From IMG/VR virus record IMGVR_UViG_3300021375_000006: 64,000 bases of DNA. One strand, given 5' to 3'. Positions 4,482-58,447 of the stretch are shown here, piece by piece. Position numbers and translations under genes: made by a program. Each line of letters starts with the position of its first letter. Position 1 is the stretch's first letter. This DNA comes from a virus (taxonomy: Duplodnaviria; Caudoviricetes). Under the pieces are notes generated by a model. That model searched no databases, had not been told where the DNA came from, and was given only the letters and a program-made list of their open reading frames with translations.

Positions 4482-4505
4482 AAAATAACTAATTAAATCT
4501 TAATT

Positions 4506-5218: not shown

Positions 5219-5240
5219 ATAATTTTATTGGTATTATCTA

Positions 5241-20570: not shown

Positions 20571-20579
20571 ATATAAAAC

Positions 20580-20912
20580 ATGAGTAATCCACACTACGAA
20601 CACCAATTAAAATTAGACGCTATGAAGAAACATACTAAATTATCGTCGAGAAACAAAACCCTTCTTTTAATGGGGGCTAAGACCACTGGAAGCTTTCTAG
20701 AGGGTTATTATTATATAGAGGAAAGTTTATACATCGATGAGGCTAACTCGCTTCATTCGTTCTGTACGTGGATTGATGACCACATCGGTGGCGCAGGTCC
20801 AGTTAATATTGATATGTTATGGCTAGGGTTTAAATACCCTGAAGTAGACAGATACTCTAGAGCCTGTGTAGATATTAAGAAACAAATGGACGAAATTAAA
20901 GCATACTGTTAA
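20580..20912 (+). CDS. Hypothetical early protein, 110 aa
   Basis: ORF directly downstream of the class-1 promoter. Confidence 0.7.
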   Translation: MSNPHYEHQLKLDAMKKHTKLSSRNKTLLLMGAKTTGSFLEGYYYIEESLYIDEANSLHSFCTWIDDHIGGAGPVNIDMLWLGFKYPEVDRYSRACVDIKKQMDEIKAYC

Positions 20913-23114: not shown

Positions 23115-23460
23115 CTAGAGCGGCACCGACTAATCTGGAAGTTAATAGATCGTAGAATATACCTTTTTGAATACCTAGTACTTTGGCTAACATCTTACCG
23201 ATAGATTTTCCTAGTGCAAAACCAGTTAAACCACCGATGATAGAACCTAAAAGACCCTCTTCAACTAGATCTTCTTCTAATCTATCTAAATCAAATTCAC
23301 CAGTCTCTTCATTTAAGTATTGTTTCACAAACTCTTCTAGAGCTTGGTCAACTTTTTCCTCTAATTCAGGAGTCCACTCAGACTGTAGGCCTTCTGTTAA
23401 TAGAGCCATATCAGTTTCTGTGAGTTGTTGTTCAACTAAGTAATCATTAAATGTTTTCAT
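23089..23460 (-). CDS. Capsid-targeted precursor: acidic N-half plus Gly-rich cationic amphipathic C-half
   Basis: MKTFNDYLVE start; C-terminus GLLGSIIGGLTGFALGKSIGKMLAKVLG...; GATATATA at 23465-23472. Confidence 0.55.
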   Translation of the reverse strand: MKTFNDYLVEQQLTETDMALLTEGLQSEWTPELEEKVDQALEEFVKQYLNEETGEFDLDRLEEDLVEEGLLGSIIGGLTGFALGKSIGKMLAKVLGIQKGIFYDLLTSRLVGAALGAAMGKRF

Positions 23461-43823: not shown

Positions 43824-46589
43824 TTATTTTACTTTTAACATGTTGCGTTGTACAACGTTCTTATTTCCATACGTGTCCTCCGCTTCCAGTTGTATCGAGT
43901 AATCACCCGGCTCCTGGAAAATGTACGTGAGCCACATATTATTATAGTATATATCATTCACATTTGGGTTACTTATATTAGTAATCGTCCATTTTGGGTT
44001 TCTTGCGCCCGGGAACTTAGAAATGTCGGTTGATATAGTGACATGGGTAGATCTTTCAACTTCTGCCCAGTTTTTAAATACTTTTAAATTATCCCATGAT
44101 GGGTTATATGTTACAGCGTGAACTTCACCACTTACCTCTGAATTTACGTTACCTCTAATGCTTACGCTTTCAAAATCGTATGTTTTAGAATATTCTTGTC
44201 CAGAACATAAAATAAATTGAAATTGATCTTGTGTATCAATATCATTATCGCTGTCCATATCCTTAAAAATAGCATTGTAATTAAATTTAGAAATAATAGG
44301 GTTTTGACTAGCCTCTAATTCATTTGCTATTGACTTCCATGATTCTACATCATTTACACTAGTTGGTGTTGATGACATAACCACATGCGTACCAGTTACA
44401 ACCTCATTAGTTATAGGGTTTTTATGTGTAATAGATAGTTGATCTCCCTGTTGAATCCAATCTATTTTAAAAGAAGAACTTAAATCCGGTCCTACTCTCA
44501 TATTATTCCACCAGTTATGTACTGTATCTTTCCATCTAAAAGAACACTCGTCCCATTGGTATGGTCCAGTAGTCTCCGAGTAACCAGTATCTGAGTAGAT
44601 GTCAATAAATCTTCTCACTGTTGAGAATCTTACACCCTGATCTGTAGCGTCTTTTGGATAATTAGCTCTATCTAATGTCAGATAGAAAGTAGCAATTGAA
44701 TCCTCTACTTTATTTGTATTATCTTGTGGGAAATCCCAATAACCACCAGAATGATTCCAATCTAATACTTTATTATTCCAAGGTGCTATATTATCTTTCT
44801 TATCAGTTTCTAACCAAGAGTAAATACCATATAATTCAATCTCTTTTAATTTAACATCAAAAAGATCTTTTTTCTTATAGTAAGACATGTGACCAAATAG
44901 ATCGTAATATCTTAATTCAACTGTATATGAACCTACATAGGGTAGATTAAGTGGCAATCTCTTGTAGTCATCGACAGGTCCTCTATATTCTTTGTGCCAT
45001 CCTTCTGGTCCATCAATAATCCATTCAACTTCATAGACCCATCTCTTCCACCAGTTTTCCCAGGTTACTTTAAGGTTTGCGTTAGCGTCGACGGCATCAT
45101 CCCATACAAATTGAGCCTCGTCCCATACATCATCCCAAGATTCCATCGAGTCTAAAATAACTGGACAACCAATTGGAATTAAGTTTTGACCGAAGTTCTG
45201 GTTCCATGAGTTCATCTCTCTATCATGATATGTCTCATAGAATTTTTCATAGACAGTTTTTAACTCTGTTCTTTGAGCCTCTGTTAAATTAGACTCATCA
45301 CCAATGCCTAAATTTAAGAATGTAGTGTAGTCATTAGTTAAATCGTTTTGATCTAGGTAAGACTTTAATACCATTGAAGTATCTTCAATAAATAAGTCTC
45401 TATCTTTAGGGAATACATCAAACTTTACTCTATGTCCTTCGGTGAAGAATCCAATTGGATTTTGAATCTTCCAGATGTTTAAGTTCTTCTGAGCGAAATA
45501 GTCGCCTTCCCCTGTGATGTCTACGATTTTAGCTTCGAGGGGTAAAAAATCTCGTTGTAATCTATTCTTTAAACCGTATAATTTAATTAGGACTTCTTCT
45601 GGAGTATAATCAAATACTTCATCTACATTAGCAAAATCCCACTGATCGAATGTACCATTAGGCTCATTTAATCTGTAGACTAGAGAGAATCTACTAGTTT
45701 TCTTCTGCGTAGCAGAAGGCATTTTAAACTTAAGTAGTTTTCTAGTCATCTCACCTCTTACAGATGAGTTAGGTACTGGGATTGCATGTAACTTACCGAA
45801 AGTCTTCGAGTCTTTATCTACATTAATCCAATACTCTTTAAGTGTAATCTTATCGTAACCAAAGAAGTCGATAGCATTTAGGATAGCCTTATATGTACCA
45901 ACGAATGGTTTAATATTATTTAGTTCTAATAGTAACTCCTTTCTCTTTTGGTTTAAGAGTTGATAGTCTGGATGCATTTCAGAAATGTCATGCGATTTGA
46001 ATATCATAAAGTCTTCGTCTTCTAAAGACGCACCTAAGTTACCTAATAAAACTTTTAGTCTTTCATCCTCTGCTTCTACTTCTCCGTAGAATTCAATCTC
46101 AGCGATTAGTGTTGTACCGGCTTTAACCTGCAATACTCTCTTGTGAATACCTTCGTTCTGTGAAGAGACCGCGATATTGATTTGTAGTGCAATATTCTCA
46201 TGTACATTTACATTCTTTAGATAATCACCATCCTGTGATGTTATCGTTGAATAGTCTGCTAAGTCTAATGATTGGGATTTAAGCTCCTTTATATAGGCCT
46301 TACCACCATCCATTCTCATACCATACATAATAACATCTTTCGACTGATCTTTTTCTAAAGCCTTCCAGCTAAAGTCAAATTTTGTTATTATACCATTTGG
46401 TGAGATTGGCTTATTGATTAAAGTTTGCCCTTCTTTTAAAACCTCTTCTAATACAAATAGATTAACAGTTTCATACAGATTTGCAGATACTTCAGGTAGA
46501 TAGACCTTACCAGTCCAAACACCTGCTGCGTTCTGTACCAACTGTAATTCAGAAGTAGTACCATTAAAGAATCTTAAATTATTCCACAT
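43824..46589 (-). CDS. Baseplate wedge-associated protein with a C-terminal PKD-like domain
   Basis: GTYKAILNAIDFFG (wedge gp7/P2 I-like); C-terminal YIFQEPGDYSIQLEAEDTYGN (PKD-like). Confidence 0.5.
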   Translation of the reverse strand: MWNNLRFFNGTTSELQLVQNAAGVWTGKVYLPEVSANLYETVNLFVLEEVLKEGQTLINKPISPNGIITKFDFSWKALEKDQSKDVIMYGMRMDGGKAYIKELKSQSLDLADYSTITSQDGDYLKNVNVHENIALQINIAVSSQNEGIHKRVLQVKAGTTLIAEIEFYGEVEAEDERLKVLLGNLGASLEDEDFMIFKSHDISEMHPDYQLLNQKRKELLLELNNIKPFVGTYKAILNAIDFFGYDKITLKEYWINVDKDSKTFGKLHAIPVPNSSVRGEMTRKLLKFKMPSATQKKTSRFSLVYRLNEPNGTFDQWDFANVDEVFDYTPEEVLIKLYGLKNRLQRDFLPLEAKIVDITGEGDYFAQKNLNIWKIQNPIGFFTEGHRVKFDVFPKDRDLFIEDTSMVLKSYLDQNDLTNDYTTFLNLGIGDESNLTEAQRTELKTVYEKFYETYHDREMNSWNQNFGQNLIPIGCPVILDSMESWDDVWDEAQFVWDDAVDANANLKVTWENWWKRWVYEVEWIIDGPEGWHKEYRGPVDDYKRLPLNLPYVGSYTVELRYYDLFGHMSYYKKKDLFDVKLKEIELYGIYSWLETDKKDNIAPWNNKVLDWNHSGGYWDFPQDNTNKVEDSIATFYLTLDRANYPKDATDQGVRFSTVRRFIDIYSDTGYSETTGPYQWDECSFRWKDTVHNWWNNMRVGPDLSSSFKIDWIQQGDQLSITHKNPITNEVVTGTHVVMSSTPTSVNDVESWKSIANELEASQNPIISKFNYNAIFKDMDSDNDIDTQDQFQFILCSGQEYSKTYDFESVSIRGNVNSEVSGEVHAVTYNPSWDNLKVFKNWAEVERSTHVTISTDISKFPGARNPKWTITNISNPNVNDIYYNNMWLTYIFQEPGDYSIQLEAEDTYGNKNVVQRNMLKVK

Positions 46590-46591
46590 AG

Positions 46592-46867
46592 TTATCTAGT
46601 TGTCTCGTCGTCTTTTTGTACTGTAAAGTTTTTATAGTTCTTTAAATATCTTACTTGATCTAAAAGAGCTACCATATAATCGTTGATAAAGAGTAAAAAC
46701 TCTCTTATCGTTTGGTTTCTTTGAATATGAGGGGAAACTTGTCTACCAATTAGACCTCTTTGACCAGACTTATAGTCGTACTTGGTATTCTTAAGATCGT
46801 CTCTTCTATGCTTGGCCACTTTATACAGCCTTTTACGCTTGTAAACTAATAGGTCTTTAAATAACAT
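46592..46867 (-). CDS. Hypothetical basic protein, 91 aa
   Basis: ORF track; coupled to the gp6-like stop. Confidence 0.6.
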   Translation of the reverse strand: MLFKDLLVYKRKRLYKVAKHRRDDLKNTKYDYKSGQRGLIGRQVSPHIQRNQTIREFLLFINDYMVALLDQVRYLKNYKNFTVQKDDETTR

Positions 46868-48696
46868 TATTTCAAGGCTTTTCTATTTCCAGCCTGTACT
46901 CTAGTGTATATTGTTCTAGGTACCGGCGTTTCATCAAAATTCACACTAAGTGCAGCTTCAGCATTAATACGGGCGTCGTCAATAATAGGGTCACCATCTC
47001 GGTCTTGCCATCCGCCTCTAAAGACAGCGACTTCTTCTTTCTCCATGATGATGTCACCCCATTCGTCTAAGCCTGCAACTGTATAAGGAATTTGGGTAGT
47101 AGCATCTACATCCACGGTCTTAACTTCCTCAATGCGCTTAAAGAAAATATATTTTTGTTTGCCGTTACCAATATCTTCTAAAACTACAGGTTCTTGTGGA
47201 ACAACAGATACAGTTTTAGACTCATAGTAACCTAGACGTCTAGCTGTCTCTTCTGTTTCTGAGATAAATCTCACATTTACTGAATCAATACCATCAATTT
47301 CTTCTAGAATATACACAATATCAGATTTAGGCAATTTATCTCTTCTTGTAATATTCAATAAGTAGTCACTTACTCTAGCTCTAACTTCGCTAAAGATTTC
47401 TTGTTTCGTATAGCCCTCAAAATATCTAATATTAATATCTAAGCTATATTTTCTAATTTGAGGTTTAACAAATACCACTTCAGTAGTAACCATTTGTTGG
47501 CCACTATCTTGAATCACTTGTGACATTTTGTCATATTCGTTTTGGTCAAAGAACATTTCATTCTGTGGAATAGAGAAATAGTCTTGACTTGCTAATAGTT
47601 TTCTTTTTATATCTGGTACAGCAAAAATATAGATAACATTATCATCATCTAAATACTGATCCGATGTGGTATTGTAAGCATCCACATACGAGAACATACC
47701 ATATCTTGATAAGAAATACTCGTAATTGTCTGGAGTTGCTAAGACGTAAGATTTGGAAGCGAGAGGTGCCATTAACTTAGTAAACTCTATCGACTCTTTA
47801 TCTGCGCCCATTTTAGGTGAAGAAGTTACATTAACCTCTAGGTATTCATTTAAGTCAAAATCATCACCATTAGAATCTACACCATCTGATAACCATTGAA
47901 AAATAATATCTTGACCATCGTCAATATTACCTAAAGCACCTTTGTGTTTTACATATTCGATTTGAATATCAGATCCAGCTGGTGGAATTGCACCAAAATT
48001 ACCAGTACCAAAGTAAACATCTAATCCGCCTGAAATACCCGTTTTAAGTATATAGCCTTTTTCTTCGTTTAATAAGTCATACATGGACTCATGTTTAGTC
48101 CATTGCTCTCCGTTAATAGCAACTGTAACTTTTGAATGATCTGTTAACTCATTAATTTTTATATTGTAAGATTGCATTGGCTCTCCAGTTCCAGTAAATG
48201 TTTGTTGTTCAAACAGACCCTGAATAATAGCACACTTAACTTTAAGTTTATTAGATTTTTCCAATCTAAACTTTTCTTGTTGGCTTAATATAGTATATTT
48301 TAAACCATTTAATTCACATGATAGTTCTGATCTAGCATCAATATTTAAACCAGTACCTGCAATCTTACCAAGATCTGCACCTACTTTCCATCTAAATTCA
48401 ATCTCACCAGTTGCAGCAAAACCTCTAGTTGCATCATGACCAGTTAATCTTGATAGACCATATATAGACTCTGGTTGCTGAGCAGTATAAATGTTTTGTT
48501 CTACCGTAGCATCTTCTACATAGAACATAATTAGTTCACCAAGCTCTGCCATTACATTTACAATCTGAGCAAATGGTGAAGCCTCTGTAAATAGAGTACT
48601 TGCACGATTATATACTCTTGCAATATAAGTACGAGCGTCTACCTTAATTTGGTTAGCGCTGGTTCTTAGTGTACTTAAAAATTTTAATTCTGCCAT
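46867..48696 (-). CDS. gp6: Baseplate wedge subunit (T4 gp6 / baseplate J-like)
   Basis: YIFYVEDATVEQNIYTAQQPESIYGLSRLTGH; YFGTGNFGAIP; GADKESIE...AP..YVLATPDNYE. Confidence 0.8.
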   Translation of the reverse strand: MAELKFLSTLRTSANQIKVDARTYIARVYNRASTLFTEASPFAQIVNVMAELGELIMFYVEDATVEQNIYTAQQPESIYGLSRLTGHDATRGFAATGEIEFRWKVGADLGKIAGTGLNIDARSELSCELNGLKYTILSQQEKFRLEKSNKLKVKCAIIQGLFEQQTFTGTGEPMQSYNIKINELTDHSKVTVAINGEQWTKHESMYDLLNEEKGYILKTGISGGLDVYFGTGNFGAIPPAGSDIQIEYVKHKGALGNIDDGQDIIFQWLSDGVDSNGDDFDLNEYLEVNVTSSPKMGADKESIEFTKLMAPLASKSYVLATPDNYEYFLSRYGMFSYVDAYNTTSDQYLDDDNVIYIFAVPDIKRKLLASQDYFSIPQNEMFFDQNEYDKMSQVIQDSGQQMVTTEVVFVKPQIRKYSLDINIRYFEGYTKQEIFSEVRARVSDYLLNITRRDKLPKSDIVYILEEIDGIDSVNVRFISETEETARRLGYYESKTVSVVPQEPVVLEDIGNGKQKYIFFKRIEEVKTVDVDATTQIPYTVAGLDEWGDIIMEKEEVAVFRGGWQDRDGDPIIDDARINAEAALSVNFDETPVPRTIYTRVQAGNRKALK

Positions 48697-48703
48697 TAGT
48701 TAT

Positions 48704-49060
48704 TTATCTTAAATTTACTTGGATTGTGTACTCATTATTTACAGTAATGTCTACATAACAAATATCTCTAACTTCACCTTTGAAAAACTTAACATCTACT
48801 GACGTATCGTATTTTCTAGAAAGGGGTACATAATTAGATAGTTGTTTTTCAATCTCGTTTCTAATTTGGAATTCATTTTGGTTTAAACTATACACCAAAT
48901 CTTCTAAATTACATCCAAAATCAGGTTCACCTAATACATCATTCTTTCTAGTAAAAAGAGTATTCTCGATCTGTACCAATAACTGCTCTATCTCACCGTT
49001 GTTTTGTACAACATTTGTTTGATAGTTAGGGTCACCTATATGTTTAATGTAAAAATCCAT
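48704..49060 (-). CDS. gp25: Baseplate wedge / sheath initiator (gp25-like)
   Basis: IENTLFTRKNDVLGEPDFGCNLEDLV, a typical gp25 motif; upstream of gp6. Confidence 0.8.
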   Translation of the reverse strand: MDFYIKHIGDPNYQTNVVQNNGEIEQLLVQIENTLFTRKNDVLGEPDFGCNLEDLVYSLNQNEFQIRNEIEKQLSNYVPLSRKYDTSVDVKFFKGEVRDICYVDITVNNEYTIQVNLR

Positions 49061-49080
49061 TTATATATGTATTCGGCTCA

Positions 49081-49923
49081 TTATGAGTGGAACATCCAGT
49101 CCACGCCTTCGTCACCCTTAATTTCCTCAATAATCGACTCTAATTCGGTGTCTCCCATGTCTTTTATTGCGTCATAATCAAATTCTACATTACCAGGTAA
49201 TGCAAATTTAAAGATACCAAGTTTGGCACCTAAAGACTGCTTTATTTTAGCAGAACAATATCTAAAAAATATTTCATCTTCATAAATAGCACAATCTGGT
49301 AGAGTTTCATATACGTGTAGAATTACATCCTTCTTTGGTGTATCACCTAAGATCTTTAACTCACCAGTTAATCTTGAGTATTGAAATGAAATAGGATTTT
49401 CCATAATTTGTCTAGACAAATCAGCTAAAGATTGATTTAATACATAGTATTGTAATTCTTCTGCAGCTTCCGCAGCTCCAGCACCTTCATACATTCCTCT
49501 AAATAACATTTTTTCTAAAGCGAAGTCTCCACCACTTTGAAATCTTACATCTAATCCACCTCCAGTAGAATTAAAACCAGAACCAGTATCATGGACACCA
49601 AATACAGAAAATACTGCACCTGAACCATCTACACTTGCATTAGGTAAATTTAAAGACCTGTGGTTTTTAAAATACGTAGAAGCAAATACTTCTGCTGGAA
49701 CATGATAATAGTTCTCTCTAACAGCGTCTTCATAGTTTTTATAGAACCATTTCTTAGCTCTTTTAACTATATTAATAATTTCTCTTTGAGGTAGGTTAAC
49801 AGGAACCATACATGCACCAGTCATGTCATCACCCAATTCTTGAAGGAATGCGTTTAAACAACTATCGCCGAATGATCTTTCGGTGCTTAAGTTAGTTTCG
49901 TTACCTGATCTTATTTCACTCAT
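49081..49923 (-). CDS. gp13: Neck / head-completion protein (T4 gp13-like)
   Basis: YCSAKIKQSLGAKLGIFKFALPGNVEFDYDAI resembles the gp13 C-terminal LPGGV motif. Confidence 0.7.
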   Translation of the reverse strand: MSEIRSGNETNLSTERSFGDSCLNAFLQELGDDMTGACMVPVNLPQREIINIVKRAKKWFYKNYEDAVRENYYHVPAEVFASTYFKNHRSLNLPNASVDGSGAVFSVFGVHDTGSGFNSTGGGLDVRFQSGGDFALEKMLFRGMYEGAGAAEAAEELQYYVLNQSLADLSRQIMENPISFQYSRLTGELKILGDTPKKDVILHVYETLPDCAIYEDEIFFRYCSAKIKQSLGAKLGIFKFALPGNVEFDYDAIKDMGDTELESIIEEIKGDEGVDWMFHS

Positions 49924-49924
49924 T

Positions 49925-51235
49925 TTAACTATTTATTTTTGTACTTACCACTATTTCAGTATCGTCAAATCTAGCATGTGGACCAATACCACCCTCTCTG
50001 AAAATACCTCCAACCATTCTACCTTTGAAAATACCATCCTTCCCAAAGACAAAACAATTTGTTAATTGACAACTACCGTGCACATAAGAAGACTCAACTT
50101 TTGAATCCTTTACCTCACAACCTTTATAGAGTTGTGATCTTACTATTTGTGCACCATCAACAACACCACCGTAAATACCACTATTTTCGATGTTACCTGA
50201 TAGCTCGCAATCTATAAACTCAAAGCCATCTAACAAGTATGCAGTTTTAAATTTACCGCCTTTAACCTGTACCATACCATAGTCGGAATCGTAGTTAATA
50301 ATACCTTCTTCCATACCACCGTGCGCGAGTAGCGCTAGAACTTTATGTTTAAATCTGTCCCATTGTACCTCGATTACTTGCTCGTTATCTGTTAAGTCTA
50401 CTAATATATTTATCTTCTTCCAATATTTATTTACTGCTTTGTAATCTTTTAGCATTTCCATTAGAGGTCTATTCTTCTCTAAGATGCGTTTAAGTTCAAT
50501 TTTATTCTCAGGAGTAAATTTAGGATTGAAACAAGATTTAAAAACAGACATGATAAATCCATCCGCAAGATGTAGAATATCATCTGTTCTTTTTTCATAA
50601 CCCTCACCACCTAAATATCTAAACTCTAAATAGTTCTTCTGTGCCTTTTCAAAGTTAATACCATAATATTTAGTATTAGCAAAAGTAAAGTTATCTGAAC
50701 TAATTAGATTTTCGTTATAGTAAAAAGCTTCATGTTTAGGCATAATCCATTTAATAGATTTTGCATAAGTAGAATCTTCTCTGTTTGGGAAATACTTGTA
50801 TACTCTAGCCTCATCAAACTCTAGGATAAATTTCAACACAGACATGCGTTGAACCATATTTTTATCTACTAAATAATCAGGGTTAAATGACATATTAAGG
50901 TGGATTGAAGCTCGGTCATTTGTATAACCATTCTTTTCAATCCATCTTAACATTTTTTGAATTACAATTCTAGCATTTCTATAAGGCATAGGACCCGTTA
51001 CGAGTTCAATTAAGCCTTTACCACCTGACATATCAGGTTCCATCTTAAAGACATCAGCGCTTGGCTGGAAATCAGAATGTGCTTTATCTTCTAACCTAAT
51101 CTTTCTATTTACTAACTCAGATACAGATTTTTGTGTTTCCTCTAATTCTAGATTAGAATAAAACTCAAACTCAATTCCAATCTGGCTAGCGTTTAGAATA
51201 GATTGCCTATCCGAAGATGCGTTTAATTTTTGCAT
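49925..51235 (-). CDS. Putative amidoligase (COOH-NH2 ligase type 2) with a C-terminal beta-helix-like tail
   Basis: IGIEFEF, EPDMSG...IELVTGP, ASIHLNMSF, KYYGINF and YLEFR motifs. Confidence 0.75.
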   Translation of the reverse strand: MQKLNASSDRQSILNASQIGIEFEFYSNLELEETQKSVSELVNRKIRLEDKAHSDFQPSADVFKMEPDMSGGKGLIELVTGPMPYRNARIVIQKMLRWIEKNGYTNDRASIHLNMSFNPDYLVDKNMVQRMSVLKFILEFDEARVYKYFPNREDSTYAKSIKWIMPKHEAFYYNENLISSDNFTFANTKYYGINFEKAQKNYLEFRYLGGEGYEKRTDDILHLADGFIMSVFKSCFNPKFTPENKIELKRILEKNRPLMEMLKDYKAVNKYWKKINILVDLTDNEQVIEVQWDRFKHKVLALLAHGGMEEGIINYDSDYGMVQVKGGKFKTAYLLDGFEFIDCELSGNIENSGIYGGVVDGAQIVRSQLYKGCEVKDSKVESSYVHGSCQLTNCFVFGKDGIFKGRMVGGIFREGGIGPHARFDDTEIVVSTKINS

Positions 51236-51286
51236 GTTAAGAGTATGATATTACTTTTGAATATATATCAAACTCTGTTGGGATAG

Positions 51287-52570
51287 TTATTGGGGTAATT
51301 TTAAAAATACCTTCATAGACGATTCATCAATTCTAGTAATTTGTACATCTAAAGAATCACCTATCATATATTCTTCAAGTTTATTATCTGGAAGCTCACT
51401 TACATGTAATAAACCAGTTACGCCCTCTTCAATATTTACAAATATACCATAATCCTTTTTAGTCTTTACTTTTGCAGCAACAATAGAAGGTATTTGGTAT
51501 CTTGATGAAATATTAATCCATGGGTTAATAGCAGTCCCCTCTTTTTGAGTTAATGTAATTTTGTTATCGCTAATAATATCTTTTACAAAGAATTTAATTG
51601 GCTCGCCAGGTTTAATATCTCTATTCTTAAATCTAATTAGAGTATCTTCATTTAATTCATTATTATGAATCATTCCAGTTAAACATTTATCAAACTCAAC
51701 AAATACTCCATATTTTGCAGTTCCTGTTACGTTACCTTCTTTAGGTTCTTGTATATTCTCTTTTAAGTTATTAATAGCCTGTGGAATTAAAGCTTGTAAA
51801 TATTTTCTATGTGATACTACAATTGTACCTCTATCTGGAGAGAAACTAACTGGTACTACATAAATTTCTTCACCGACAATAGAACTAAAGTCAGATAGTT
51901 TATTAATACCTGCAAGTGAACCTGGCATAAAGCAATCTATACCTTGTACTCTTACAATATAACCACCGTTCTCAATCATATTTTTAACCTTACCGATCCA
52001 GGCAGTATTACCCTCTTCGATACCAGCTCTTAGGTCCATGAAAGTTTTATGTTTCACTCCACCTGTAATAGATCCAGTTAATGTACCCCTTGTTTCTGTA
52101 ATTAAGACTGCAGTCTCTTCACCAGGCAACATCATTCTAACTTCTTCAGATTCTTTTGAAGCCTTTACATATACAGACTCTCTATATCCTATATCAACAG
52201 TAATCCATTCTTGGTCTACTGCATAGATATTACCTGTATGGATTTCTCCAATATTTAAACTTGGTTTAATTTCAGGGCTATTTTCAACTAAAATATCATA
52301 TAACTCTTGCGCATAAGGTTCTCTTGAATAGACCTTATCACCATGTCTAGTCTTAATATGTGGATTTGGTTTTCTGGTTTTAGTAACACACGTAGCTTCG
52401 TATGCGTCCCATAAGAATTCGCCGTTCTCATCATAGAACTGTGCATGGGGATCTTGAGTTTCCTCTTTTACTTCTTTAATTTCTTCTGTGGGTTTTTGAA
52501 TAGTTTCAACTAATTCAACTGTGCTTGCTTCTTGGGTTGCAGAAATTCTGCGTCTTTTTTTATCTGACAT
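51287..52570 (-). CDS. rpsA: Phage-encoded ribosomal protein bS1 homolog (four S1/OB domains)
   Basis: D1 VDIGYRESVYV; D2 GGYIVRVQGIDCFMPGS...IVVSHRK; D3 YGVFVEF...GMIHNNEL; D4 NPW...YGIFVNIEEGVTGLLHVSEL. The N-terminal FLWDAYE recalls Bacteroidetes bS1 (FNWDAF/YE). Confidence 0.85.
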   Translation of the reverse strand: MSDKKRRRISATQEASTVELVETIQKPTEEIKEVKEETQDPHAQFYDENGEFLWDAYEATCVTKTRKPNPHIKTRHGDKVYSREPYAQELYDILVENSPEIKPSLNIGEIHTGNIYAVDQEWITVDIGYRESVYVKASKESEEVRMMLPGEETAVLITETRGTLTGSITGGVKHKTFMDLRAGIEEGNTAWIGKVKNMIENGGYIVRVQGIDCFMPGSLAGINKLSDFSSIVGEEIYVVPVSFSPDRGTIVVSHRKYLQALIPQAINNLKENIQEPKEGNVTGTAKYGVFVEFDKCLTGMIHNNELNEDTLIRFKNRDIKPGEPIKFFVKDIISDNKITLTQKEGTAINPWINISSRYQIPSIVAAKVKTKKDYGIFVNIEEGVTGLLHVSELPDNKLEEYMIGDSLDVQITRIDESSMKVFLKLPQ

Positions 52571-52604
52571 TTATTTTAGATTAACAGTGTAACATATTAT
52601 ATAT

Positions 52605-52973
52605 CTACTTAAGTATTCGTTTTATCCAAGCGTAATGTTTTCTACCACTTAGGTAACTTAAGTTATCATCGTTATCATAAGCCTCTCTTTCAAACGAGAT
52701 ATTATAGTAGGCTTTTTTACCATAAAAGAATAGTTTAATAAACCACTCAGTTACATACCAAATATAAAATGGTATAATTAACATCTCTTCTTGTTGTTTA
52801 ATATGAATAGTCTCGTGGTTAATTATCCTAGCCGCCCTTCTTCTCCACGGTGGAGTCGAATTGTAAATCTCTCTTAAGATAACATACGGCCAGAGAGTAA
52901 TACCACCGATTCGCATAAATATGCCAATTCGATCTAGAAACTTATCATTATACTTAATAATAGGTGTTTTCAT
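52605..52973 (-). CDS. Small HEXXH (zincin-like) protein
   Basis: INHETIHIKQQEE...AYYNISFEREAY. Confidence 0.65.
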   Translation of the reverse strand: MKTPIIKYNDKFLDRIGIFMRIGGITLWPYVILREIYNSTPPWRRRAARIINHETIHIKQQEEMLIIPFYIWYVTEWFIKLFFYGKKAYYNISFEREAYDNDDNLSYLSGRKHYAWIKRILK

Positions 52974-52987
52974 ATAATTTATATATT

Positions 52988-53461
52988 CTATTTACAAACC
53001 TCCGCGCTGGGTATAAATAGCGCGTCTGTTACTTTTTCAGCATGTTGCTCCCATGGTCTATCTTCCCATGGTTGTTTCCATGTAGATATTTGACCTCTCC
53101 ACGTAACTAGGCCGAATCCTTCTTTTAATAAACCCCTTTCAAATTGATAAACATGAACTAGTTCATGAAAGAATGTTCTCTCTAATCTTTCTAACGTATA
53201 TCTACTATTTAATTGAATTAGATAAATGTTAGGTAATATTTCTGTAGTTAGTCCAATAATCCTAAAATCTAATGGGGCCATTTCTGTTTTAATCACAGGT
53301 GACATAAGAGGTGGATTTCGTAACAGGGAATCTCTTAAAAACTTTTTTGAACTTTCATTATCAATAACCTCTGCTACAGTTGGTCTTTTTTTAATTAAAA
53401 TATTACTGTGCTTCGGCGTATTATCTTCTGCAATCTGAGCTGCAAAGAGATAAAAGGCCAA
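52988..53461 (-). CDS. HEXXH metallopeptidase-like protein with a probable signal peptide
   Basis: FFHELVHVYQ...PWEQHA. The reading frame is open upstream to 53503, giving LKRFIFLLAFYLFAAQIA. Confidence 0.65.
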   Translation of the reverse strand: MAFYLFAAQIAEDNTPKHSNILIKKRPTVAEVIDNESSKKFLRDSLLRNPPLMSPVIKTEMAPLDFRIIGLTTEILPNIYLIQLNSRYTLERLERTFFHELVHVYQFERGLLKEGFGLVTWRGQISTWKQPWEDRPWEQHAEKVTDALFIPSAEVCK

Positions 53462-53542
53462 CAGAAAGATAAATCTTTTAAGGATAATGTTAGGATTTGA
53501 TTGTTATTATATGTATCTGCAAAAAACTTTGCCATTTTAGAC

Positions 53543-53608
53543 AAAATAATTGCCTCTAGATTTTTTTATGTCAATTATTTTTCGTATATTAGTACTGTAA
53601 TTAAAAAC
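53543..53608 (+). promoter_or_regulatory. Class-1 (putative early) promoter element, copy 3
   Basis: AAAATAATTGC(53543)...TTTTTTTATGTCA-N11-TATATTAGTACTGTAATTAAAAAC; 31 nt identical to copy 2. Confidence 0.8.
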
Positions 53609-53619
53609 AAACAATAACT

Positions 53620-54096
53620 ATGTATATTAAAGAACACAAGGGGTATAGCGACGAAACAGTCTACTCTATCGAGCAAAACATTAACGGTAAAATGCACAAG
53701 TTCCATACCAGCGAATATGGCTTCAAATGGGATGTAGAATATGACTATAGGGTCGTTACGAAATGTGTAGCCGGATGGATGACTATCTCAGAAGGTAAAT
53801 CAACTCTGCAAGCCCTAGTTAATAGGTATAAGAAGAATGCCTTACAGACGATCGAACTTAAGTCTACCCACCCAGGGTCAGATACGTATTTAACTGCTCT
53901 TGCACTTAAAGCCAATAAGTTCGCCACAGTGGCCAATTGTATCTTGGAGAATATAACTATAGGTACGATCCATAGCTCTTTCCCAAAGATGGCTGACCAC
54001 GGACACTGGAAATCTATCGGATCTAAAACTTGGGCCGACAACGCTTACAAGTTGGAAGATCAATTCAAAAATATGACAATCGAAGTTATCAAATAA
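53620..54096 (+). CDS. Hypothetical early protein, 158 aa
   Basis: Directly downstream of the class-1 promoter. Confidence 0.7.
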   Translation: MYIKEHKGYSDETVYSIEQNINGKMHKFHTSEYGFKWDVEYDYRVVTKCVAGWMTISEGKSTLQALVNRYKKNALQTIELKSTHPGSDTYLTALALKANKFATVANCILENITIGTIHSSFPKMADHGHWKSIGSKTWADNAYKLEDQFKNMTIEVIK

Positions 54097-54097
54097 T

Positions 54098-54508
54098 ATG
54101 AAACAATTTAACTATAAAGAAATCAAATGTAACGGTATTGGTGGCTCAGGCTACCAAGCCGTTCTTAAACACAAAGATCAAATTCAATCTATCTGTCAAG
54201 AGGTTCGAGACTTACTCGGCGATAAACTCTGGGAAAAGATGATTAAGCAAGCGTCTGAAGTAGATACTTATACTGACTATCACTCAGGTCGTAGATACAA
54301 TAGTGTAGAAGATAACTCTTACCGATTAGTTACCGGAATTGCAAAACATGTATCTTCTTACCTTAACGATGATTTGCTAATTGAGATGCACGTAGGCGCG
54401 GTTCTAAACAACCTAACTATTGACGAAAAGGTTTATATGGTTCTAGATGCTCTTCGCGACTGCGCGTCTGCAGACCATTGGTATACTTTCGAAAAGGACT
54501 GGGGTTAA
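54098..54508 (+). CDS. Hypothetical early protein, 136 aa
   Basis: Coupled to the previous ORF; convergent with the 54505 ORF. Confidence 0.7.
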   Translation: MKQFNYKEIKCNGIGGSGYQAVLKHKDQIQSICQEVRDLLGDKLWEKMIKQASEVDTYTDYHSGRRYNSVEDNSYRLVTGIAKHVSSYLNDDLLIEMHVGAVLNNLTIDEKVYMVLDALRDCASADHWYTFEKDWG

Positions 54509-56313
54509 AATACAATCGGTACAAAACCTACCATTGGAACTGGTCCGACAGGAGTCGGAATACCACCAAGATAAAGCAACTTAAATTCTAGTAGATGCAG
54601 GGCATAAGCTCCTGCAACTGCTGTACTTACTGCCATCGCGGGTGGTTGTTTTGCCGGCAACTTACTAAAAGACTTACCTGTATTCCAGGCTCTTCTTAAA
54701 TTATTAGCTAGGCGATTTGCACTTCCATAATAAATTGGAATGTAGATACCTGTTAAAGGTGGAGCAATTAACGCTGGAGGAGCAGAAGGAGTTGGCTTAA
54801 ATGGCTTAACAACACAAGCATACCAATATGCAATCGTTACTCTAGCCATCATCATATATGGATCTCCAGAATAGGTCTTACCTCCAGGTGTTGAACCACT
54901 AGGATCCCATGGATGTGCTACTTCTGTTAAATCTTCTTCACATTCTTCGGCTTTCTTTTTAGCACATTTAGCTCTATGGTATTCAAATTTAAAAAGAGTG
55001 CCTTCTGGTTTTGGATTAATTTGAAAGAATGCTTTTTGTGCATCTGCCTTTTTAGAAGCAGCCCTTAATTTAGACTTTGGTACTTTTCTCCACTTCTTTT
55101 CCCATTCATTCTTTTCATACTTACTCTTTACCCAGTTTTTTGATTTAATAAACTTAGGTGCATTAGTAACTACACCGCTTGCATTTGCAGTAAAATTACC
55201 ACTTCTTACTCCAGGGTACCAACTAAAAGTAGCCACTACATTTGAGGTTAAAATCTTTGGTCTTTGGCTAGGGTTTTCCGGTGGGTAGTGTTCAAAATCA
55301 TAAGCCACTTGAATTTTATATTCATTTAATGGGCAGTCTAATTCATAAGGTAGAGTAATCGGCCCTGTTGGATCTTTTTTAATTCTATTTCTTAATAATG
55401 TAGTATTAAAGAATGTCCATGTATTCTCCTCTTCTTCAGGATGTACTTCATGAATAGCTTCAATACAAAGAGTACTAACATTATCTACTAATTCCTTCCA
55501 ATCATAACCAGCATCTTCAATATCATTTCTAGCAGTAGTATTAACATTAGGATAAGGCATGCCAGACCAACCACTGCCAAATCCACTTGAATTGCTATAG
55601 TTCTCTGAGCCAAGACATGCTAACCAAATATAGAATTCCCATTTAGTATTCTTATTTGTAATCCTTTCAAATTGCTGTAATAGTCTAGATGCAAATATCT
55701 TTTCTAATTCATCTTGAGTCTCATTACCATCAATACATGGAAATTGAAAAAATCTAAATTTATATAAGTCGTATTCCTCTTTAGCAGCATCAACGAATTG
55801 ATTAAAAGCCTTATCATTTTCTTTTTCTAATTCTGCTAATTCTTCAGCACTTGGTGGTTCTACTTCTGGGCAAAAATCAGCATAGGCAGGATGTGACTCT
55901 TTCCCCATCTCAATTAGATTACCATCTTCATCATATTGGTCTTGTAGAGGTATATCACCCTCTCTTAATAATCGTTCGAATGCAATACCATATCCCTGTT
56001 TTAACAACAGCTCAGCAGCACCATTATTAATATGGAATTCTGCAACATGGGTTTGTGCATTATTTTTTACAGCTTCAATATAATGTTCTGCAACCTGAAC
56101 TCCAAAATCATATCTACCAGATAATGGGTTTGGATTAATCGCATTTATATAATCAGCTTTATTAGATTTTAAACTATTATTAAGTGGATTACCTACCTCG
56201 GATTTGAACTCAGGAAGATCGTAAGAAACTACAGCTCCACCTGGTTTAGTAAACTGCTGACTTGTAATAGTGTTAGCCAAGTCAGGAATAAATTTAGGCC
56301 ACATTGCAGGCAT
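54505..56313 (-). CDS. Hypothetical virion-associated protein downstream of the spike gene, 602 aa
   Basis: Directly follows the gp5-like gene; Pro-rich hydrophobic C-terminus. Confidence 0.5.
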   Translation of the reverse strand: MPAMWPKFIPDLANTITSQQFTKPGGAVVSYDLPEFKSEVGNPLNNSLKSNKADYINAINPNPLSGRYDFGVQVAEHYIEAVKNNAQTHVAEFHINNGAAELLLKQGYGIAFERLLREGDIPLQDQYDEDGNLIEMGKESHPAYADFCPEVEPPSAEELAELEKENDKAFNQFVDAAKEEYDLYKFRFFQFPCIDGNETQDELEKIFASRLLQQFERITNKNTKWEFYIWLACLGSENYSNSSGFGSGWSGMPYPNVNTTARNDIEDAGYDWKELVDNVSTLCIEAIHEVHPEEEENTWTFFNTTLLRNRIKKDPTGPITLPYELDCPLNEYKIQVAYDFEHYPPENPSQRPKILTSNVVATFSWYPGVRSGNFTANASGVVTNAPKFIKSKNWVKSKYEKNEWEKKWRKVPKSKLRAASKKADAQKAFFQINPKPEGTLFKFEYHRAKCAKKKAEECEEDLTEVAHPWDPSGSTPGGKTYSGDPYMMMARVTIAYWYACVVKPFKPTPSAPPALIAPPLTGIYIPIYYGSANRLANNLRRAWNTGKSFSKLPAKQPPAMAVSTAVAGAYALHLLEFKLLYLGGIPTPVGPVPMVGFVPIVF

Positions 56314-56316
56314 AGC

Positions 56317-57033
56317 TTACTTGTTCTTTTGTTGATAGTTAATATGTGTCGAACCTAATTTTGCAACTGTTGCCGGAGTAGGAGGCATCGGAGGACCAGA
56401 TGGCCCAACACCAGTTGGATGGATATGTGCATTGTAATCATCTAATAGAGCCTGTAACCAATCTTGTAGAGATTGACCTCTTACCGCAGGTTCTGTTTCA
56501 TCTGCTCCAGACTCACCTGTATTAGATACAAATATATCTCCACAATCTAAAAAGACTTTAGCGTCTGTAGAAATCTTAATAAAACCCTCTTCATCAATTT
56601 GAAGCATAGGTCTTTCTTTTGCGCCCTCACCTCTAGTAATGACTAAGCCATCTTCTGGTGAGTGGTAAATTCTTAAGTTACGTTCTGCATCGTAAACCAG
56701 GGATATAACATCTTGTGGTGCGTCAGATGACTCTAGGATGTCTCCCTTTAAGTCATCATTCTGATCTACTTGAAACCAGTATTCTGGGTGGTAGATATTA
56801 CCATTATCAAATCTAACTGCAACAATATCACCAACTCTAGGTACAGCATGTGCACCCACCTGATCTCTATTCATAGGAGTTGCCCATGGAATCTGGTCGT
56901 CTGGTAATTTATCAAATTTACCGAATACTTTTACTCTAACCCTACCTTGAAGAAGTGGGTCTTCATTAATAACCACTTCACCTAACCAATGAGTCTCTCG
57001 TAAATTATCTCTGTAAAGTTCATTATTATTCAT
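56317..57033 (-). CDS. gp5: Baseplate central spike (gp5/gpV-like OB fold, no lysozyme domain)
   Basis: WLGEVVINEDPLLQGRVRVKVFG...IPWA...VPRVGDIVAVRF; C-terminal HIHP metal-binding tip motif. Confidence 0.8.
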   Translation of the reverse strand: MNNNELYRDNLRETHWLGEVVINEDPLLQGRVRVKVFGKFDKLPDDQIPWATPMNRDQVGAHAVPRVGDIVAVRFDNGNIYHPEYWFQVDQNDDLKGDILESSDAPQDVISLVYDAERNLRIYHSPEDGLVITRGEGAKERPMLQIDEEGFIKISTDAKVFLDCGDIFVSNTGESGADETEPAVRGQSLQDWLQALLDDYNAHIHPTGVGPSGPPMPPTPATVAKLGSTHINYQQKNK

Positions 57034-58447
57034 GTACGTTTTCGTTTATTGGTCCATCAGTATCTGGTGGTGTATCACCGTGAATATTATCTGGGCCTAA
57101 TGGGGCTTCTGGTTGAAGTAGTCCATCATTAAGCTCATCATAAATTCTACCTAATTTTATATTATCTGGAGTAGAATCAGATCCAGCTAAACCTACATTA
57201 CCTAAACCACCAATACCAGGACCTCCATTACCATCGTTATTTTTACCTATTAGATTTCCTACTAGGTTGCCGACTGCATTTAAACTACCTGTTTTTAAAG
57301 CAGTTGATATATCATTTATTGTACCACCTAATCCGTGAACATTACCTAAAAGTAGAGACCCTGTTAAATCGTCAGTTGCCTTATCTAAAAGGTTTTTAAC
57401 AATACCAGGTTGATCTGGGTTAGCGAACGAATTAGCAATACTATTTGCTTGAGCAGTAGCTGCGTCTTTTGCATTTTGTAAGACAGATTCAACTTTACCA
57501 ATTGTTCTACCTCTAATAGCATCTAAATATTTCTGACCAGTGGATTGACCCGCACCGTTATCTACTCTACCAATCTTTTGAGCCTCTTCTATTCTTTTAT
57601 TAATAGGTTTATCTGAATCTTCTTTTTCGTTAAACAAGTTCGAACCTAATTTTTGATCTATTTGTCTACATGTACCCCAATTAATTTTAATGCTTGGTCT
57701 TACAGCTTCTGGGTTTTTAGTTAATTCACCAAAAAACGACGCTAAAGAGTCTTTATCAAATTCACAATGGGTAAATCTTAATCTAACAAAAGGAGTTACA
57801 TCAGCCGATGTAAAGTCTTTATTAACATAATTTTCATGTAAATCAGTTACTGTACCACCAGCAGAATTACTTGAATTACCAAAATTAGAATCTTCATTAT
57901 CAGTACTACCTAAGTTTCTAGAATTAGTATCTTTTTGAAATACTCTAATCTCAGATACAATTATATCCATTGAAAATTCTCTTAAGTTTCTAGGTACCAC
58001 CTCTACATATCTTTCAAAATCAAAACAGGCTCTTTTATATAAGTCCATCAAACCAATTGCTGTAAACTCCATGTTTTCTTCTAGACATGTAATTTCTAGT
58101 TCTGGTTTTTCAGCACCTCTCCATGGCTCTGTCATATCACCATAAGTCATAGCAGCATCTAAGCCTTTTAAACCCTGCCAAAACCAAGGCATTTCTTGAT
58201 TAACCTTTCTTAATACTCTATTAAAGTTCTTTAAATTAGCAGCAAGTTTATTTCCAACATCGTCTCTAATTACATCTTGTAGATAACGTTCTGCCGTACC
58301 ATCAAGCAGGGGCGAGTGCCCAACATCAGGGTGGTCGTCAAAATGGAATAATATAAGAAAACTCAAATACGTAGGATCTTCATCAATCAAACGTATTCGA
58401 GAGCCCTTTTTAAACTCATTCCTTGTTCTAAAATCTAAATCTGCCAT
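57026..58447 (-). CDS. Tail-tube-fold baseplate protein (gp54/gp48-like) with a Gly/Asn-rich tail
   Basis: Position between hub and spike; LEITCLE...LMDLYKRA...FSMDIIVSE pattern. Confidence 0.35.
   Translation of the reverse strand: MADLDFRTRNEFKKGSRIRLIDEDPTYLSFLILFHFDDHPDVGHSPLLDGTAERYLQDVIRDDVGNKLAANLKNFNRVLRKVNQEMPWFWQGLKGLDAAMTYGDMTEPWRGAEKPELEITCLEENMEFTAIGLMDLYKRACFDFERYVEVVPRNLREFSMDIIVSEIRVFQKDTNSRNLGSTDNEDSNFGNSSNSAGGTVTDLHENYVNKDFTSADVTPFVRLRFTHCEFDKDSLASFFGELTKNPEAVRPSIKINWGTCRQIDQKLGSNLFNEKEDSDKPINKRIEEAQKIGRVDNGAGQSTGQKYLDAIRGRTIGKVESVLQNAKDAATAQANSIANSFANPDQPGIVKNLLDKATDDLTGSLLLGNVHGLGGTINDISTALKTGSLNAVGNLVGNLIGKNNDGNGGPGIGGLGNVGLAGSDSTPDNIKLGRIYDELNDGLLQPEAPLGPDNIHGDTPPDTDGPINENVHE

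What the first reader, a model, noticed from the sequence alone, without database searches (positions are those of the whole stretch)
51287..52605. Phage-encoded, four-domain ribosomal protein S1 under a late-type promoter
SEEN: four S1/OB repeats matching bS1 D1-D4, a Bacteroidetes-like FxWDAYE N-terminal motif with a roughly 40-aa insertion, no D5-D6, and GATATATA 28 nt upstream. KNOWN: bS1 recruits and unfolds A/U-rich mRNA leaders; Bacteroidetes largely do not use Shine-Dalgarno pairing; S1 homologs have been reported in some huge phages. INFERENCE: it replaces host bS1 late in infection to bias ribosomes toward A-rich phage structural mRNAs.
Basis: partly seen in the sequence, partly recalled or inferred. 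Interest (0 to 1): 0.68.

Follow-up and report, generated by a model that had tools for sequence, protein, structure and literature searches.

The report
Phage copy of ribosomal protein S1
A large marine T4-like phage of Flavobacteria-type hosts carries a shortened, four-domain copy of ribosomal protein S1 that keeps the parts used to dock on the host ribosome and sits behind the phage's late promoter. It is a well-supported example of a gene type reported in huge phages in 2020 and never tested at the bench.

Summary
A 427-aa minus-strand ORF (51287-52570) has four S1/OB domains, a Bacteroidia-type F-x-W N-terminal motif, and GATATATAAT 27-28 nt upstream.

Three corrections:
- Only D1 and D2 match bS1 D1 and D2 specifically. 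The last two domains are generic RNA-binding S1 domains of the D4-D6 type.
- The extra loop after the F-x-W motif is about 18-23 residues, not about 40.
- The family is not nested in host bS1. It is an old, phage-only four-domain lineage.

The gene has a fixed place (baseplate hub, S1, amidoligase-like gene, gp13-like neck gene) in relatives down to 30-41% identity, including the published 462-kb phage LR756500. Prevotella Lak phages carry the same family without that synteny.

GATATATA is a real promoter-type signal: 8 of 10 copies lie within 70 nt upstream of gene starts, mostly virion genes, and it is conserved upstream of S1 in relatives. Leaders lack Shine-Dalgarno cores in 47 of 48 genes.

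A fold of residues 40-185 with F. johnsoniae uS2 and uS8 supports docking (0.70, best control 0.26) but may reflect memory of solved S1 complexes.

The most likely function is a late-made substitute for host bS1 on Bacteroidia 30S subunits. That idea was published in 2020 (Al-Shayeb et al.), and this scan has already met the family in at least eight other genomes. Verdict: a new member of a known kind, of modest interest.

The parts
51287..52570 (-). Phage S1 gene, 427 codons plus stop (protein P0001)
   Evidence: ORF list and translation. Pfam S1 four stretches, E 4e-28. rpsA models 139-149 bits, below their curated cut-offs. E. coli bS1 E 8e-37. Foldseek best match is E. coli bS1 9gut_B, E 4e-27. 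dN/dS 0.10-0.20 against five relatives.
52596..52605 (-). GATATATAAT, the late-type promoter element; its 5' end overlaps the TAG stop of the upstream gene
   Evidence: Sequence. 8 of 10 GATATATA and 8 of 9 ATATATAA copies lie within 70 nt upstream of starts on the coding strand; these are the two most enriched 8-mers. The element is conserved upstream of S1 in L002, L007, L008, L010 and L082, and as GAGATATATAC in L084, whose S1 is 41% identical.
52451..52570 (-). Residues 1-40: disordered tail with a conserved basic patch (KKRRR, R8 invariant)
   Evidence: pLDDT 35-40 for residues 1-38. R8 invariant and I9 nearly invariant in alignment A1.
52262..52441 (-). Residues 44-103: the ribosome anchor. 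Helix 1 carries F52-x-W54-x-x-Y-E, a loop of about 20 residues follows, then V80-Y-S-R-E-P-Y-A-Q-E-L-Y-D (helix 2).
   Evidence: Model helices at 54-60 and 87-96. Both elements align with Bacteroidia bS1. F. johnsoniae bS1 residues 4-40, including FLANFNWHNF, were seen on uS2/uS8 by cryo-EM (PMC13000457). Predicted contacts at 52-66 and 77-103.
52031..52261 (-). Residues 104-180: domain 1, of the bS1 D1 type (protein-binding, without the YG-F-V / H RNA-binding signature)
   Evidence: Domain HMM D1 22.5 bits against 5 bits or less for the other five. Predicted contacts of 116-134 and 163 with uS2.
51773..52021 (-). Residues 184-266: domain 2, of the bS1 D2 type; the best conserved part of the family
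   Evidence: Domain HMM D2 59.7 bits against 16 bits or less for the others; 53 of 53 family members match D2 best. BLAST hits only the D2 region of Bacteroidia bS1 at E below 1e-6. G203, P216 and S253 are invariant across 108 sequences.
51527..51763 (-). Residues 270-348: domain 3, a canonical RNA-binding S1 domain (K-Y-G-V-F-V ... G-M-I-H)
   Evidence: Alignment to E. coli D3. Domain HMM scores: D4 39.7, D6 33.5, D5 30.7, D3 19.9 bits.
51290..51517 (-). Residues 352-427: domain 4, a canonical RNA-binding S1 domain (D-Y-G-I-F-V ... G-L-L-H-V-S-E)
   Evidence: Best Pfam S1 stretch, 363-422. Domain HMM scores: D6 55.3, D5 52.3, D4 51.6 bits.
51262..51269 (-). Second GATATATA, 26-27 nt upstream of the next gene
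49925..51235 (-). Conserved downstream neighbour: 436-aa virus-only protein with a weak Amidoligase_2 match. Listed as context; no link to S1 function is shown.
   Evidence: Pfam PF12224, E 2e-6. Adjacent to S1 in L082, L084, L088 (LR756500) and L011. Atlas clusters are 100% viral.

Best explanation
The gene encodes a phage version of small-subunit ribosomal protein bS1.

Proposed mechanism:
- It is transcribed from the phage's T4-late-like promoter (GATATATAAT) together with virion genes.
- The protein docks on the host 30S subunit at the bS1 site. The host is a Flavobacteriaceae-type member of class Bacteroidia.
- Docking uses the N-terminal helix-loop-helix (F-x-W helix on uS8, strand and second helix on uS2) plus domains 1 and 2.
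- Its two C-terminal RNA-binding S1 domains capture the A-rich, Shine-Dalgarno-less leaders of phage messages.

Shown here: homology, domain identities, conservation, fixed gene position, a promoter-type motif, and presence of the gene in RNA libraries.

Inferred: docking (computer model only), late timing, displacement of host bS1, and any preference for phage mRNAs.
For: (1) It is a bS1 relative. It is collinear with E. coli bS1 19-347 and with rpsA models. The model has four OB barrels and Foldseek's best match is E. coli bS1.

(2) D1 and D2 are specifically of the D1 and D2 type, the ribosome-binding half of bS1. D3 and D4 keep the YG-F-V / H RNA-binding signature.

(3) The N-terminal F-x-W motif and the following Y-S-x-E...L-Y helix align with Bacteroidia bS1. 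The F-x-W motif occurs in 17 of 20 Bacteroidia bS1 and 0 of 30 other Bacteroidota bS1. In F. johnsoniae this very segment is bound to uS2/uS8 in cryo-EM maps (PMC13000457).

(4) Fold of residues 40-185 with F. johnsoniae uS2 and uS8:
- Score 0.70, best of three controls 0.26.
- That mark was reached by 58 of 80 solved complexes and 2 of 110 mismatched pairs.
- The runs agree in at least 89% of their contacts, and the partner's pLDDT is at least 78.
- Similar complexes are solved (E. coli S1-S2, F. johnsoniae 30S), so the pass may come from memory and shows likeness rather than binding.
- Predicted contact residues overlap family-conserved positions: 17 against 11 expected, p 0.012.

(5) Purifying selection: dN/dS is 0.10-0.20, and more than 120 clusters share 65-98% identity.

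(6) Promoter motif: positional enrichment p about 4e-12. It sits upstream of the tail fibre gene, the 2844-aa fibre-like gene, genes in the tail and baseplate modules and a capsid-cargo-like gene, and of none of the helicase, primase or SSB genes. It is conserved upstream of S1 down to 41% protein identity.

(7) 47 of 48 leaders lack a Shine-Dalgarno core. A is about 50% at positions -20 to -1 against 36% overall. [quoted passage not shown]

(8) Contigs of RNA libraries from four studies cover the ORF at 95-100% identity.

(9) Host: a 69%-identical copy lies in a Flavobacteriaceae MAG that also has its own 633-aa bS1.
Against: - No experiment of any kind bears on this; docking rests on a model that may recall solved S1 complexes.
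- The protein scores far below every curated rpsA cut-off (139 against 577 bits).
- It sits on a long branch outside all cellular bS1, so its function may have drifted.
- A third of the wider four-domain family keeps the F-x-W motif and the rest lack it (24 of 77 representatives have it), so the anchor is not universal.
- The gene's fixed place among baseplate and neck genes is odd for a translation factor.
- RNA-library contigs can contain DNA and give neither strand nor timing.
- 'Late' is by analogy with T4 TATAAATA. I did not test for a gp55-type sigma factor.
Confidence: 0.65

Rival explanations
1. It is a free RNA-binding protein that acts off the ribosome. It would be an RNA chaperone or a protector or organiser of phage late mRNAs, for example against host RNases or as a cofactor of a phage nuclease, in the way host S1 serves T4 RegB.
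For: Two intact RNA-binding S1 domains. S1 domains are common in non-ribosomal proteins, and Al-Shayeb et al. left open a role 'on or off the ribosome'. The long branch away from cellular bS1. Two thirds of the wider family lack the F-x-W motif.
Against: D1 and D2 are the protein-binding, non-RNA-binding half of bS1, and D2 is the most conserved part of the family. The Bacteroidia-type anchor is kept in 111 of 121 close relatives. The fold with uS2/uS8 passes its controls.
Confidence: 0.15
2. It is a decoy that shuts off host translation. It would occupy the bS1 site but, lacking two RNA-binding domains, fail to recruit host messages.
For: The same docking evidence as the best explanation. It has only two RNA-binding domains where Bacteroidia bS1 has four.
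Against: Phage leaders in the window are themselves SD-less and A-rich, so they should need an S1-type function. A late-made shut-off factor would come late for take-over. This differs from the best explanation only in emphasis.
Confidence: 0.12
3. It is a virion or assembly protein: an OB-fold part of the baseplate or neck, or cargo delivered with the DNA. Its place in the genome would then reflect its job.
For: The order hub, S1, amidoligase-like, gp13-like, gp25-like, baseplate J is fixed down to 30-41% identity. It shares a promoter type with virion genes.
Against: All four domains are S1-type, with D1/D2 specificity and a ribosome anchor. PHROGs has no structural family for it. Its N-terminus is unlike the T4-type capsid-targeting N-termini (M-K-T..F-x-E-F-L-N-E) carried by the putative cargo proteins of the same window. 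In Lak phages and L087 the gene lies outside this module.
Confidence: 0.05

Closest known systems
'Possible rpS1' genes of huge phages (Al-Shayeb et al. 2020, PMC7162821), e.g. LR756500, and the S1-like gene of Prevotella Lak phages
   Same: Same protein family. tblastn identity is 35% over 81% of the query for LR756500 and 30% for Lak. LR756500 has the same order of hub, S1, amidoligase-like and gp13-like genes. Lak-A2 has the same F-N-W..Y-E and K-V-F-S-H-E-S-Y-A-Q-E-L-Y-D elements. The paper also links rpS1 to genomes without Shine-Dalgarno sequences and proposes ribosome hijacking.
   Different: This copy is from a marine clade, with contigs up to about 250 kb, that had no megablast (near-identity) DNA match in the phage collection when window 46000-58000 was searched. 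The paper did not describe the anchor motif, the domain identities, the fixed position or the promoter.
bS1 of class Bacteroidia, e.g. Flavobacterium johnsoniae bS1 (PMC13000457; PMC7797042)
   Same: An N-terminal F-x-W helix, then a loop and a second helix, then D1 and D2. The host type uses SD-less initiation that bS1 stimulates.
   Different: The phage protein has four domains instead of six, 427 aa against about 590-630. It has about 18-23 extra residues in the anchor loop and a 40-residue disordered basic tail. It is only about 27-32% identical to cellular bS1 and lies outside the Bacteroidia clade in the tree.
E. coli bS1 (PDB 6H4N, 6BU8, 9GUT)
   Same: Collinear over residues 19-347. 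Best sequence and fold match among solved structures.
   Different: E. coli uses a different N-terminal helix on uS2. It has six domains and works on ribosomes that use Shine-Dalgarno pairing.
[quoted passage not shown]
   Same: A phage-encoded bS1 proposed to replace the host protein.
   Different: The PhiMa05 gene groups with Vampirovibrio bS1 and appears to be a capture from a cell, one of six ribosomal proteins in that phage. The protein here belongs to an old, phage-only four-domain lineage.

Membership tests
Ribosomal protein bS1 (rpsA; NCBIfam TIGR00717 and PRK06299 equivalogs) | Score above the curated equivalog cut-off | tested here: not met
   139 bits against a cut-off of 577 for TIGR00717. 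The best of all rpsA models is 149 bits against 524.
Ribosomal protein bS1 (rpsA) | Tandem S1 domains in the order D1, D2 (protein-binding) then RNA-binding domains | tested here: met
   Four S1 stretches. D1 matches D1 and D2 matches D2 specifically; D3 and D4 are of the RNA-binding type.
Ribosomal protein bS1 (rpsA) | Six domains, as in Bacteroidia and Proteobacteria | tested here: not met
   The protein ends after the fourth domain. Bacteroidia bS1 of 572-717 aa carry two more.
Ribosomal protein bS1 (rpsA) | N-terminal segment plus D1 docks on uS2 (and on uS8 in Bacteroidia) | tested here: inconclusive
   The motifs are shared with Bacteroidia bS1. The fold with uS2 and uS8 scores 0.70 against a best control of 0.26; the mark was reached by 58 of 80 solved and 2 of 110 mismatched pairs. 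This is a model and may be memory of solved complexes.
Ribosomal protein bS1 (rpsA) | Branches within cellular bS1 | tested here: not met
   The phage four-domain proteins are one clade (100/100) on a branch of about 1.7 changes per site from all cellular bS1. A clade with Bacteroidia bS1 is not rejected (p-AU 0.135).
Ribosomal protein bS1 (rpsA) | Physically part of the 30S subunit | not testable with these tools
   Needs pull-down, sedimentation or cryo-EM.
Huge-phage 'possible rpS1' family (Al-Shayeb 2020) | Multi-S1-domain protein encoded on a large phage genome that lacks Shine-Dalgarno sequences | tested here: met
   Phage context of baseplate, neck and fibre genes. Contigs of relatives reach 235-250 kb. 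1 of 48 leaders has an SD core. Homology and synteny with LR756500.
T4-type late promoter | A single A/T-rich -10-like element without a -35, upstream of late (virion) genes | tested here: met
   Positional enrichment and gene classes. Conservation upstream of S1. No sigma-70-type promoter excess.
T4-type late promoter | Read by a gp55-type sigma factor with gp33 and the clamp; late timing | not tested
   There is no gp55 search here; the window's own assembly is not held. Earlier notes of this scan report a short gp55 in this phage group. That is a lead only.

The most novel reading that the evidence does not exclude
The four-domain proteins are an ancient, phage-only branch of bS1 that builds specialised ribosomes late in infection. 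By swapping the six-domain host bS1 for a two-RNA-domain version, the phage would change which leaders Bacteroidia ribosomes pick, for example the position of the A-rich tract. This might happen together with the always-adjacent amidoligase-like enzyme acting on a ribosomal protein, as RimK does on bS6. The enzyme link is pure conjecture from gene order.
Probability: 0.12. Interest if true: 0.75.

Novelty: new member of a known kind. Interest (0 to 1): 0.35.

Why it matters
If the protein really replaces bS1, these widespread marine and gut phages reprogramme the one ribosomal protein that chooses messages in bacteria that do not use Shine-Dalgarno pairing. That makes the family a natural probe of how Bacteroidia ribosomes select start sites. 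A reconstituted F. johnsoniae translation system and 30S cryo-EM already exist for that question.

For this window alone the gain is incremental. It pins down which parts are bS1-specific (anchor, D1, D2). It shows the gene is a fixed, late-promoter-driven member of the baseplate/neck module. It also shows that the family is old rather than a recent host capture.

Tried and rejected
- PHROGs has no family for the protein.
- Megablast of window 46000-58000 against the phage collection found nothing.
- The window's own assembly is not held.
- The first scan of genome contigs with the single protein found no relative.
- The phylum-level sample of bS1 turned out to be non-Bacteroidia lineages without the motif, so I repeated the search at class level.
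- The quick LG+G4 tree was not the best tree. The AU run found a constrained tree 45 log-likelihood units better. I therefore replaced it with a careful site-heterogeneous tree and repeated the test.
- The PDB entry 'Ribosomal protein S1 homologue' (28jw/9tvu) is from the Chlamydomonas chlororibosome, not from a phage.
- A literature search for a solved phage S1 returned nothing.
- Sigma-70-type promoters are not enriched, and there is no minus-strand terminator near the gene.
- Capsid packaging through a T4-type targeting sequence is rejected. Putative cargo proteins of the window start M-K-T..F-x-E-F-L-N-E, whereas S1 starts M-S-D-K-K-R-R-R.
- RNA libraries: no contig of the four runs lay on 52562-52925, the gene upstream of S1, and contigs ended at 52523-52568. 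Without a DNA run laid beside them, this gives neither a transcript start nor silence of the upstream gene.
- BLAST of D1 and of the N-terminal segment alone against Bacteroidia bS1 found nothing. Only profile and multiple-alignment methods show the relation.
- The amidoligase-like neighbour has no informative solved relative.
Full report
**What is there.** The finding's span holds one ORF on the minus strand, 51287..52570, 427 aa.
- Pfam finds four S1 domains, E 4e-28.
- Every NCBIfam rpsA model matches, but far below its curated cut-off, for example TIGR00717 at 139 bits against 577. The alignment runs from model position 7 to 343, the first four domains.
- Against solved structures the best match is E. 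coli bS1, with query 106-426 aligned to residues 19-347.
- An AlphaFold2 model built on 108 family members has mean pLDDT 76. It shows a disordered tail (1-38), two short helices (54-60 and 87-96) and four OB barrels joined by long helices.
- Foldseek's best hit is E. coli bS1 in the 30S mRNA delivery complex, 9gut_B, E 4e-27.

**Which domains.** I built HMMs of the six domains from 46 cellular bS1 and scored the four domains of 53 family members.
- Phage D1 matches D1 best in 48 of 53 members.
- Phage D2 matches D2 best in 53 of 53 members, at 57 bits against under 10 for the others.
- Phage D3 and D4 score about equally with D4, D5 and D6 and lower with D3.
- BLAST agrees.

The protein is therefore the ribosome-binding half of bS1 plus two generic RNA-binding S1 domains. 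'D1-D4' is correct as an order but not as a one-to-one identity. D3 and D4 keep the YG-F-V ... H signature of RNA-binding S1 domains, and D1 and D2 lack it, as in bS1.

**The N-terminus.**
- I took Bacteroidia bS1 from 30 genomes of the class. They carry [D/N]-F-[D/N]-W, about 10 residues, then a Y-S-x-x-E...L-x-x-L-Y helix, then D1.
- The phage protein has F52-L-W54-D-A-Y-E, a loop, then V80-Y-S-R-E-P-Y-A-Q-E-L-Y-D, then D1, and the two align.
- The phage loop is about 18 residues longer and the spacer before D1 about 5 residues longer. It is not about 40.
- The F-x-W motif occurs in 17 of 20 Bacteroidia bS1, 0 of 30 other Bacteroidota, 2 of 48 unnamed bacterial bS1, 111 of 121 close relatives of the query and 24 of 77 distant four-domain relatives.
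- A 2026 cryo-EM study placed residues 4-40 of F. johnsoniae bS1, including the helix FLANFNWHNF, on uS2 and uS8 of the 30S subunit (PMC13000457).

**Predicted docking.** I folded residues 40-185, given as an alignment, with F. johnsoniae uS2 and uS8.
- The score was 0.70 and the best of three controls was 0.26. That mark was reached by 58 of 80 solved complexes and 2 of 110 mismatched pairs.
- The runs agree in at least 89% of contacts, and the partner's pLDDT is at least 78.
- Contacts fall on residues 52-66 (F-x-W helix), 77-103 (strand and second helix against uS2 32-45) and 116-134 of D1.
- Similar complexes are solved, so the pass may be memory. It shows likeness, not binding.
- The contact residues overlap the family's conserved positions: 17 against 11 expected, p 0.012.

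**Family and origin.**
- More than 120 clusters at 65-98% identity, 425-447 aa, come from marine samples, on contigs up to 250 kb.
- An exhaustive search finds many 340-460-aa four-domain relatives at 30-49% identity. They mostly rank above cellular bS1, which is 27-32% identical.
- A careful tree (LG+C20 PMSF, 50 rows, 328 columns of D1-D4) puts the 21 sampled phage-type proteins in one clade (100/100). That clade sits on a branch of about 1.7 changes per site from cellular bS1. Bacteroidia (100/99) and Bacteroidota form their own clades without them.
- Forcing phage plus Bacteroidia together costs 17.6 log-likelihood units and is not rejected (p-AU 0.135).
- The family is therefore old and phage-specific. 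Whether it came from Bacteroidia bS1, as the shared anchor hints, is open.
- dN/dS against five relatives is 0.10-0.20.

**Context.**
- The window is a dense, mostly minus-strand phage region of 31-38% GC.
- It carries nucleotide and replication genes (helicase, primase, SSB), then tail fibre, a 2844-aa protein, baseplate J, gp25-like, a 280-aa gene matched as a head-tail adaptor whose counterparts in relatives carry Pfam Phage_T4_gp13, and baseplate hub genes.
- The order hub, S1, 436-aa amidoligase-like gene, gp13-like, gp25-like, baseplate J recurs in an 85% relative on a 235-kb contig and in a 41% relative.
- A shorter run, with S1 followed by the amidoligase-like and gp13-like genes, recurs in the published 462-kb phage LR756500, where the hub gene is also present, and in a 30% relative.
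- Lak phages of Prevotella have the same protein type, with F-N-W..Y-E, but not the synteny.
- A 69% copy lies on a 57.8-kb contig binned in a Flavobacteriaceae MAG that also has its own 633-aa bS1. This is weak but consistent host evidence.

**Promoter and leaders.**
- GATATATA is not over-represented overall: 10 copies against 6.7 expected.
- However, 8 of the 10 copies, and 8 of 9 ATATATAA copies, lie within 70 nt upstream of a start codon on the coding strand. That zone is 2.4% of positions (p about 4e-12), and these are the two most enriched 8-mers.
- The genes behind the motif are the tail fibre, the 2844-aa protein, a gene in the baseplate module, two genes with capsid-targeting-like N-termini, the amidoligase-like gene, S1 and one unknown. 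None is a replication gene.
- GATATATAATATGTTA is kept upstream of S1 at 98-69% protein identity, and GAGATATATAC at 41%.
- This resembles the T4 late promoter TATAAATA. The sigma factor was not sought here.
- Only 1 of 48 leaders has an SD core, and A is about 50% at positions -20 to -1.

**Expression.** Contigs of metatranscriptome libraries from four studies cover the ORF at 95-100% identity. Such contigs may include DNA and give no strand, start or timing.

**Reading.** The most likely function (0.65) is a late-made substitute for host bS1 on Bacteroidia 30S subunits that captures A-rich phage leaders. The rivals are an off-ribosome RNA-binding role (0.15), a shut-off decoy (0.12) and a virion or assembly role (0.05). 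The last is weakened by the lack of a capsid-targeting N-terminus.

**Novelty.**
- Al-Shayeb et al. 2020 reported possible rpS1 in huge phages, linked it to genomes without SD sequences and proposed ribosome hijacking.
- Mizuno et al. 2019 had set S1 aside as ambiguous.
- This scan has already met the same family in at least eight other genomes, with the same conclusion, and the GATATATA promoter in many.
- This is a well-supported new member of a known kind.
- The details (anchor, domain identities, fixed place, old phage-only lineage) do not appear in the papers I could search.

Noticed in passing
window 49925-51235 (-): A 436-aa virus-only protein with a weak Amidoligase_2 N-terminal match and a repeat-rich, glycine-rich C-terminal half. 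It is always the gene after S1 in T4-like relatives, including LR756500. Whether it is linked to S1 or merely part of the module is unknown.
   Followed up: partly
window 52605-52973 and 52988-53461 (-): Two small proteins with H-E-x-x-H-type metallopeptidase-like motifs (PHROG 'protease' E 1e-27; DUF6782-like) lie just upstream of S1. In the 85% relative L082 the called genes show a 122-aa gene next to S1 and no 157-aa gene.
   Followed up: no
window 20510-20579 and 53550-53619 (+): The only two plus-strand gene groups that I compared (20580-20912 and 53620-54508) share a near-identical 32-nt upstream element, TTTTTCGTATATTAGTACTGTAATTAAAAACA. This is a second promoter class, different from GATATATA.
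   Followed up: no
window 4482-4551 and 5219-5288 (-): A third shared upstream element, GAAACAAACTAGCATTCTT followed by a TATAA-like box, precedes genes 4149-4481 and 4535-5218.
   Followed up: no
window 7932-8474, 8492-10864, 10867-11250, 13138-14409, 14429-15967, 23089-23460 (-): Several proteins start with a T4 capsid-targeting-like N-terminus (M-K-T/N..F-x-E/D-F-L-N/S-E). Two polyproteins carry repeated E-S-x-V-[NT]-E linkers. The small gene 23089-23460 beside the tail-tube-like gene has the same N-terminus.
   Followed up: partly
window 52547-52570 (-), residues 1-8: The basic patch K-K-R-R-R (R8 invariant) at the very N-terminus of S1 is kept even in 42-48% relatives, inside an otherwise variable, acidic, disordered tail. 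It may be an rRNA contact, like the basic extensions reported for phage bS21.
   Followed up: no
L013 (Candidatus Muiribacterium halophilum MAG, JALOAD010000029) and L011, L012: Four-domain S1 relatives at 30-37% identity sit on contigs binned in MAGs of other lineages. L011 keeps the phage synteny and L013 does not. These are probably phage contigs swept into bins.
   Followed up: partly
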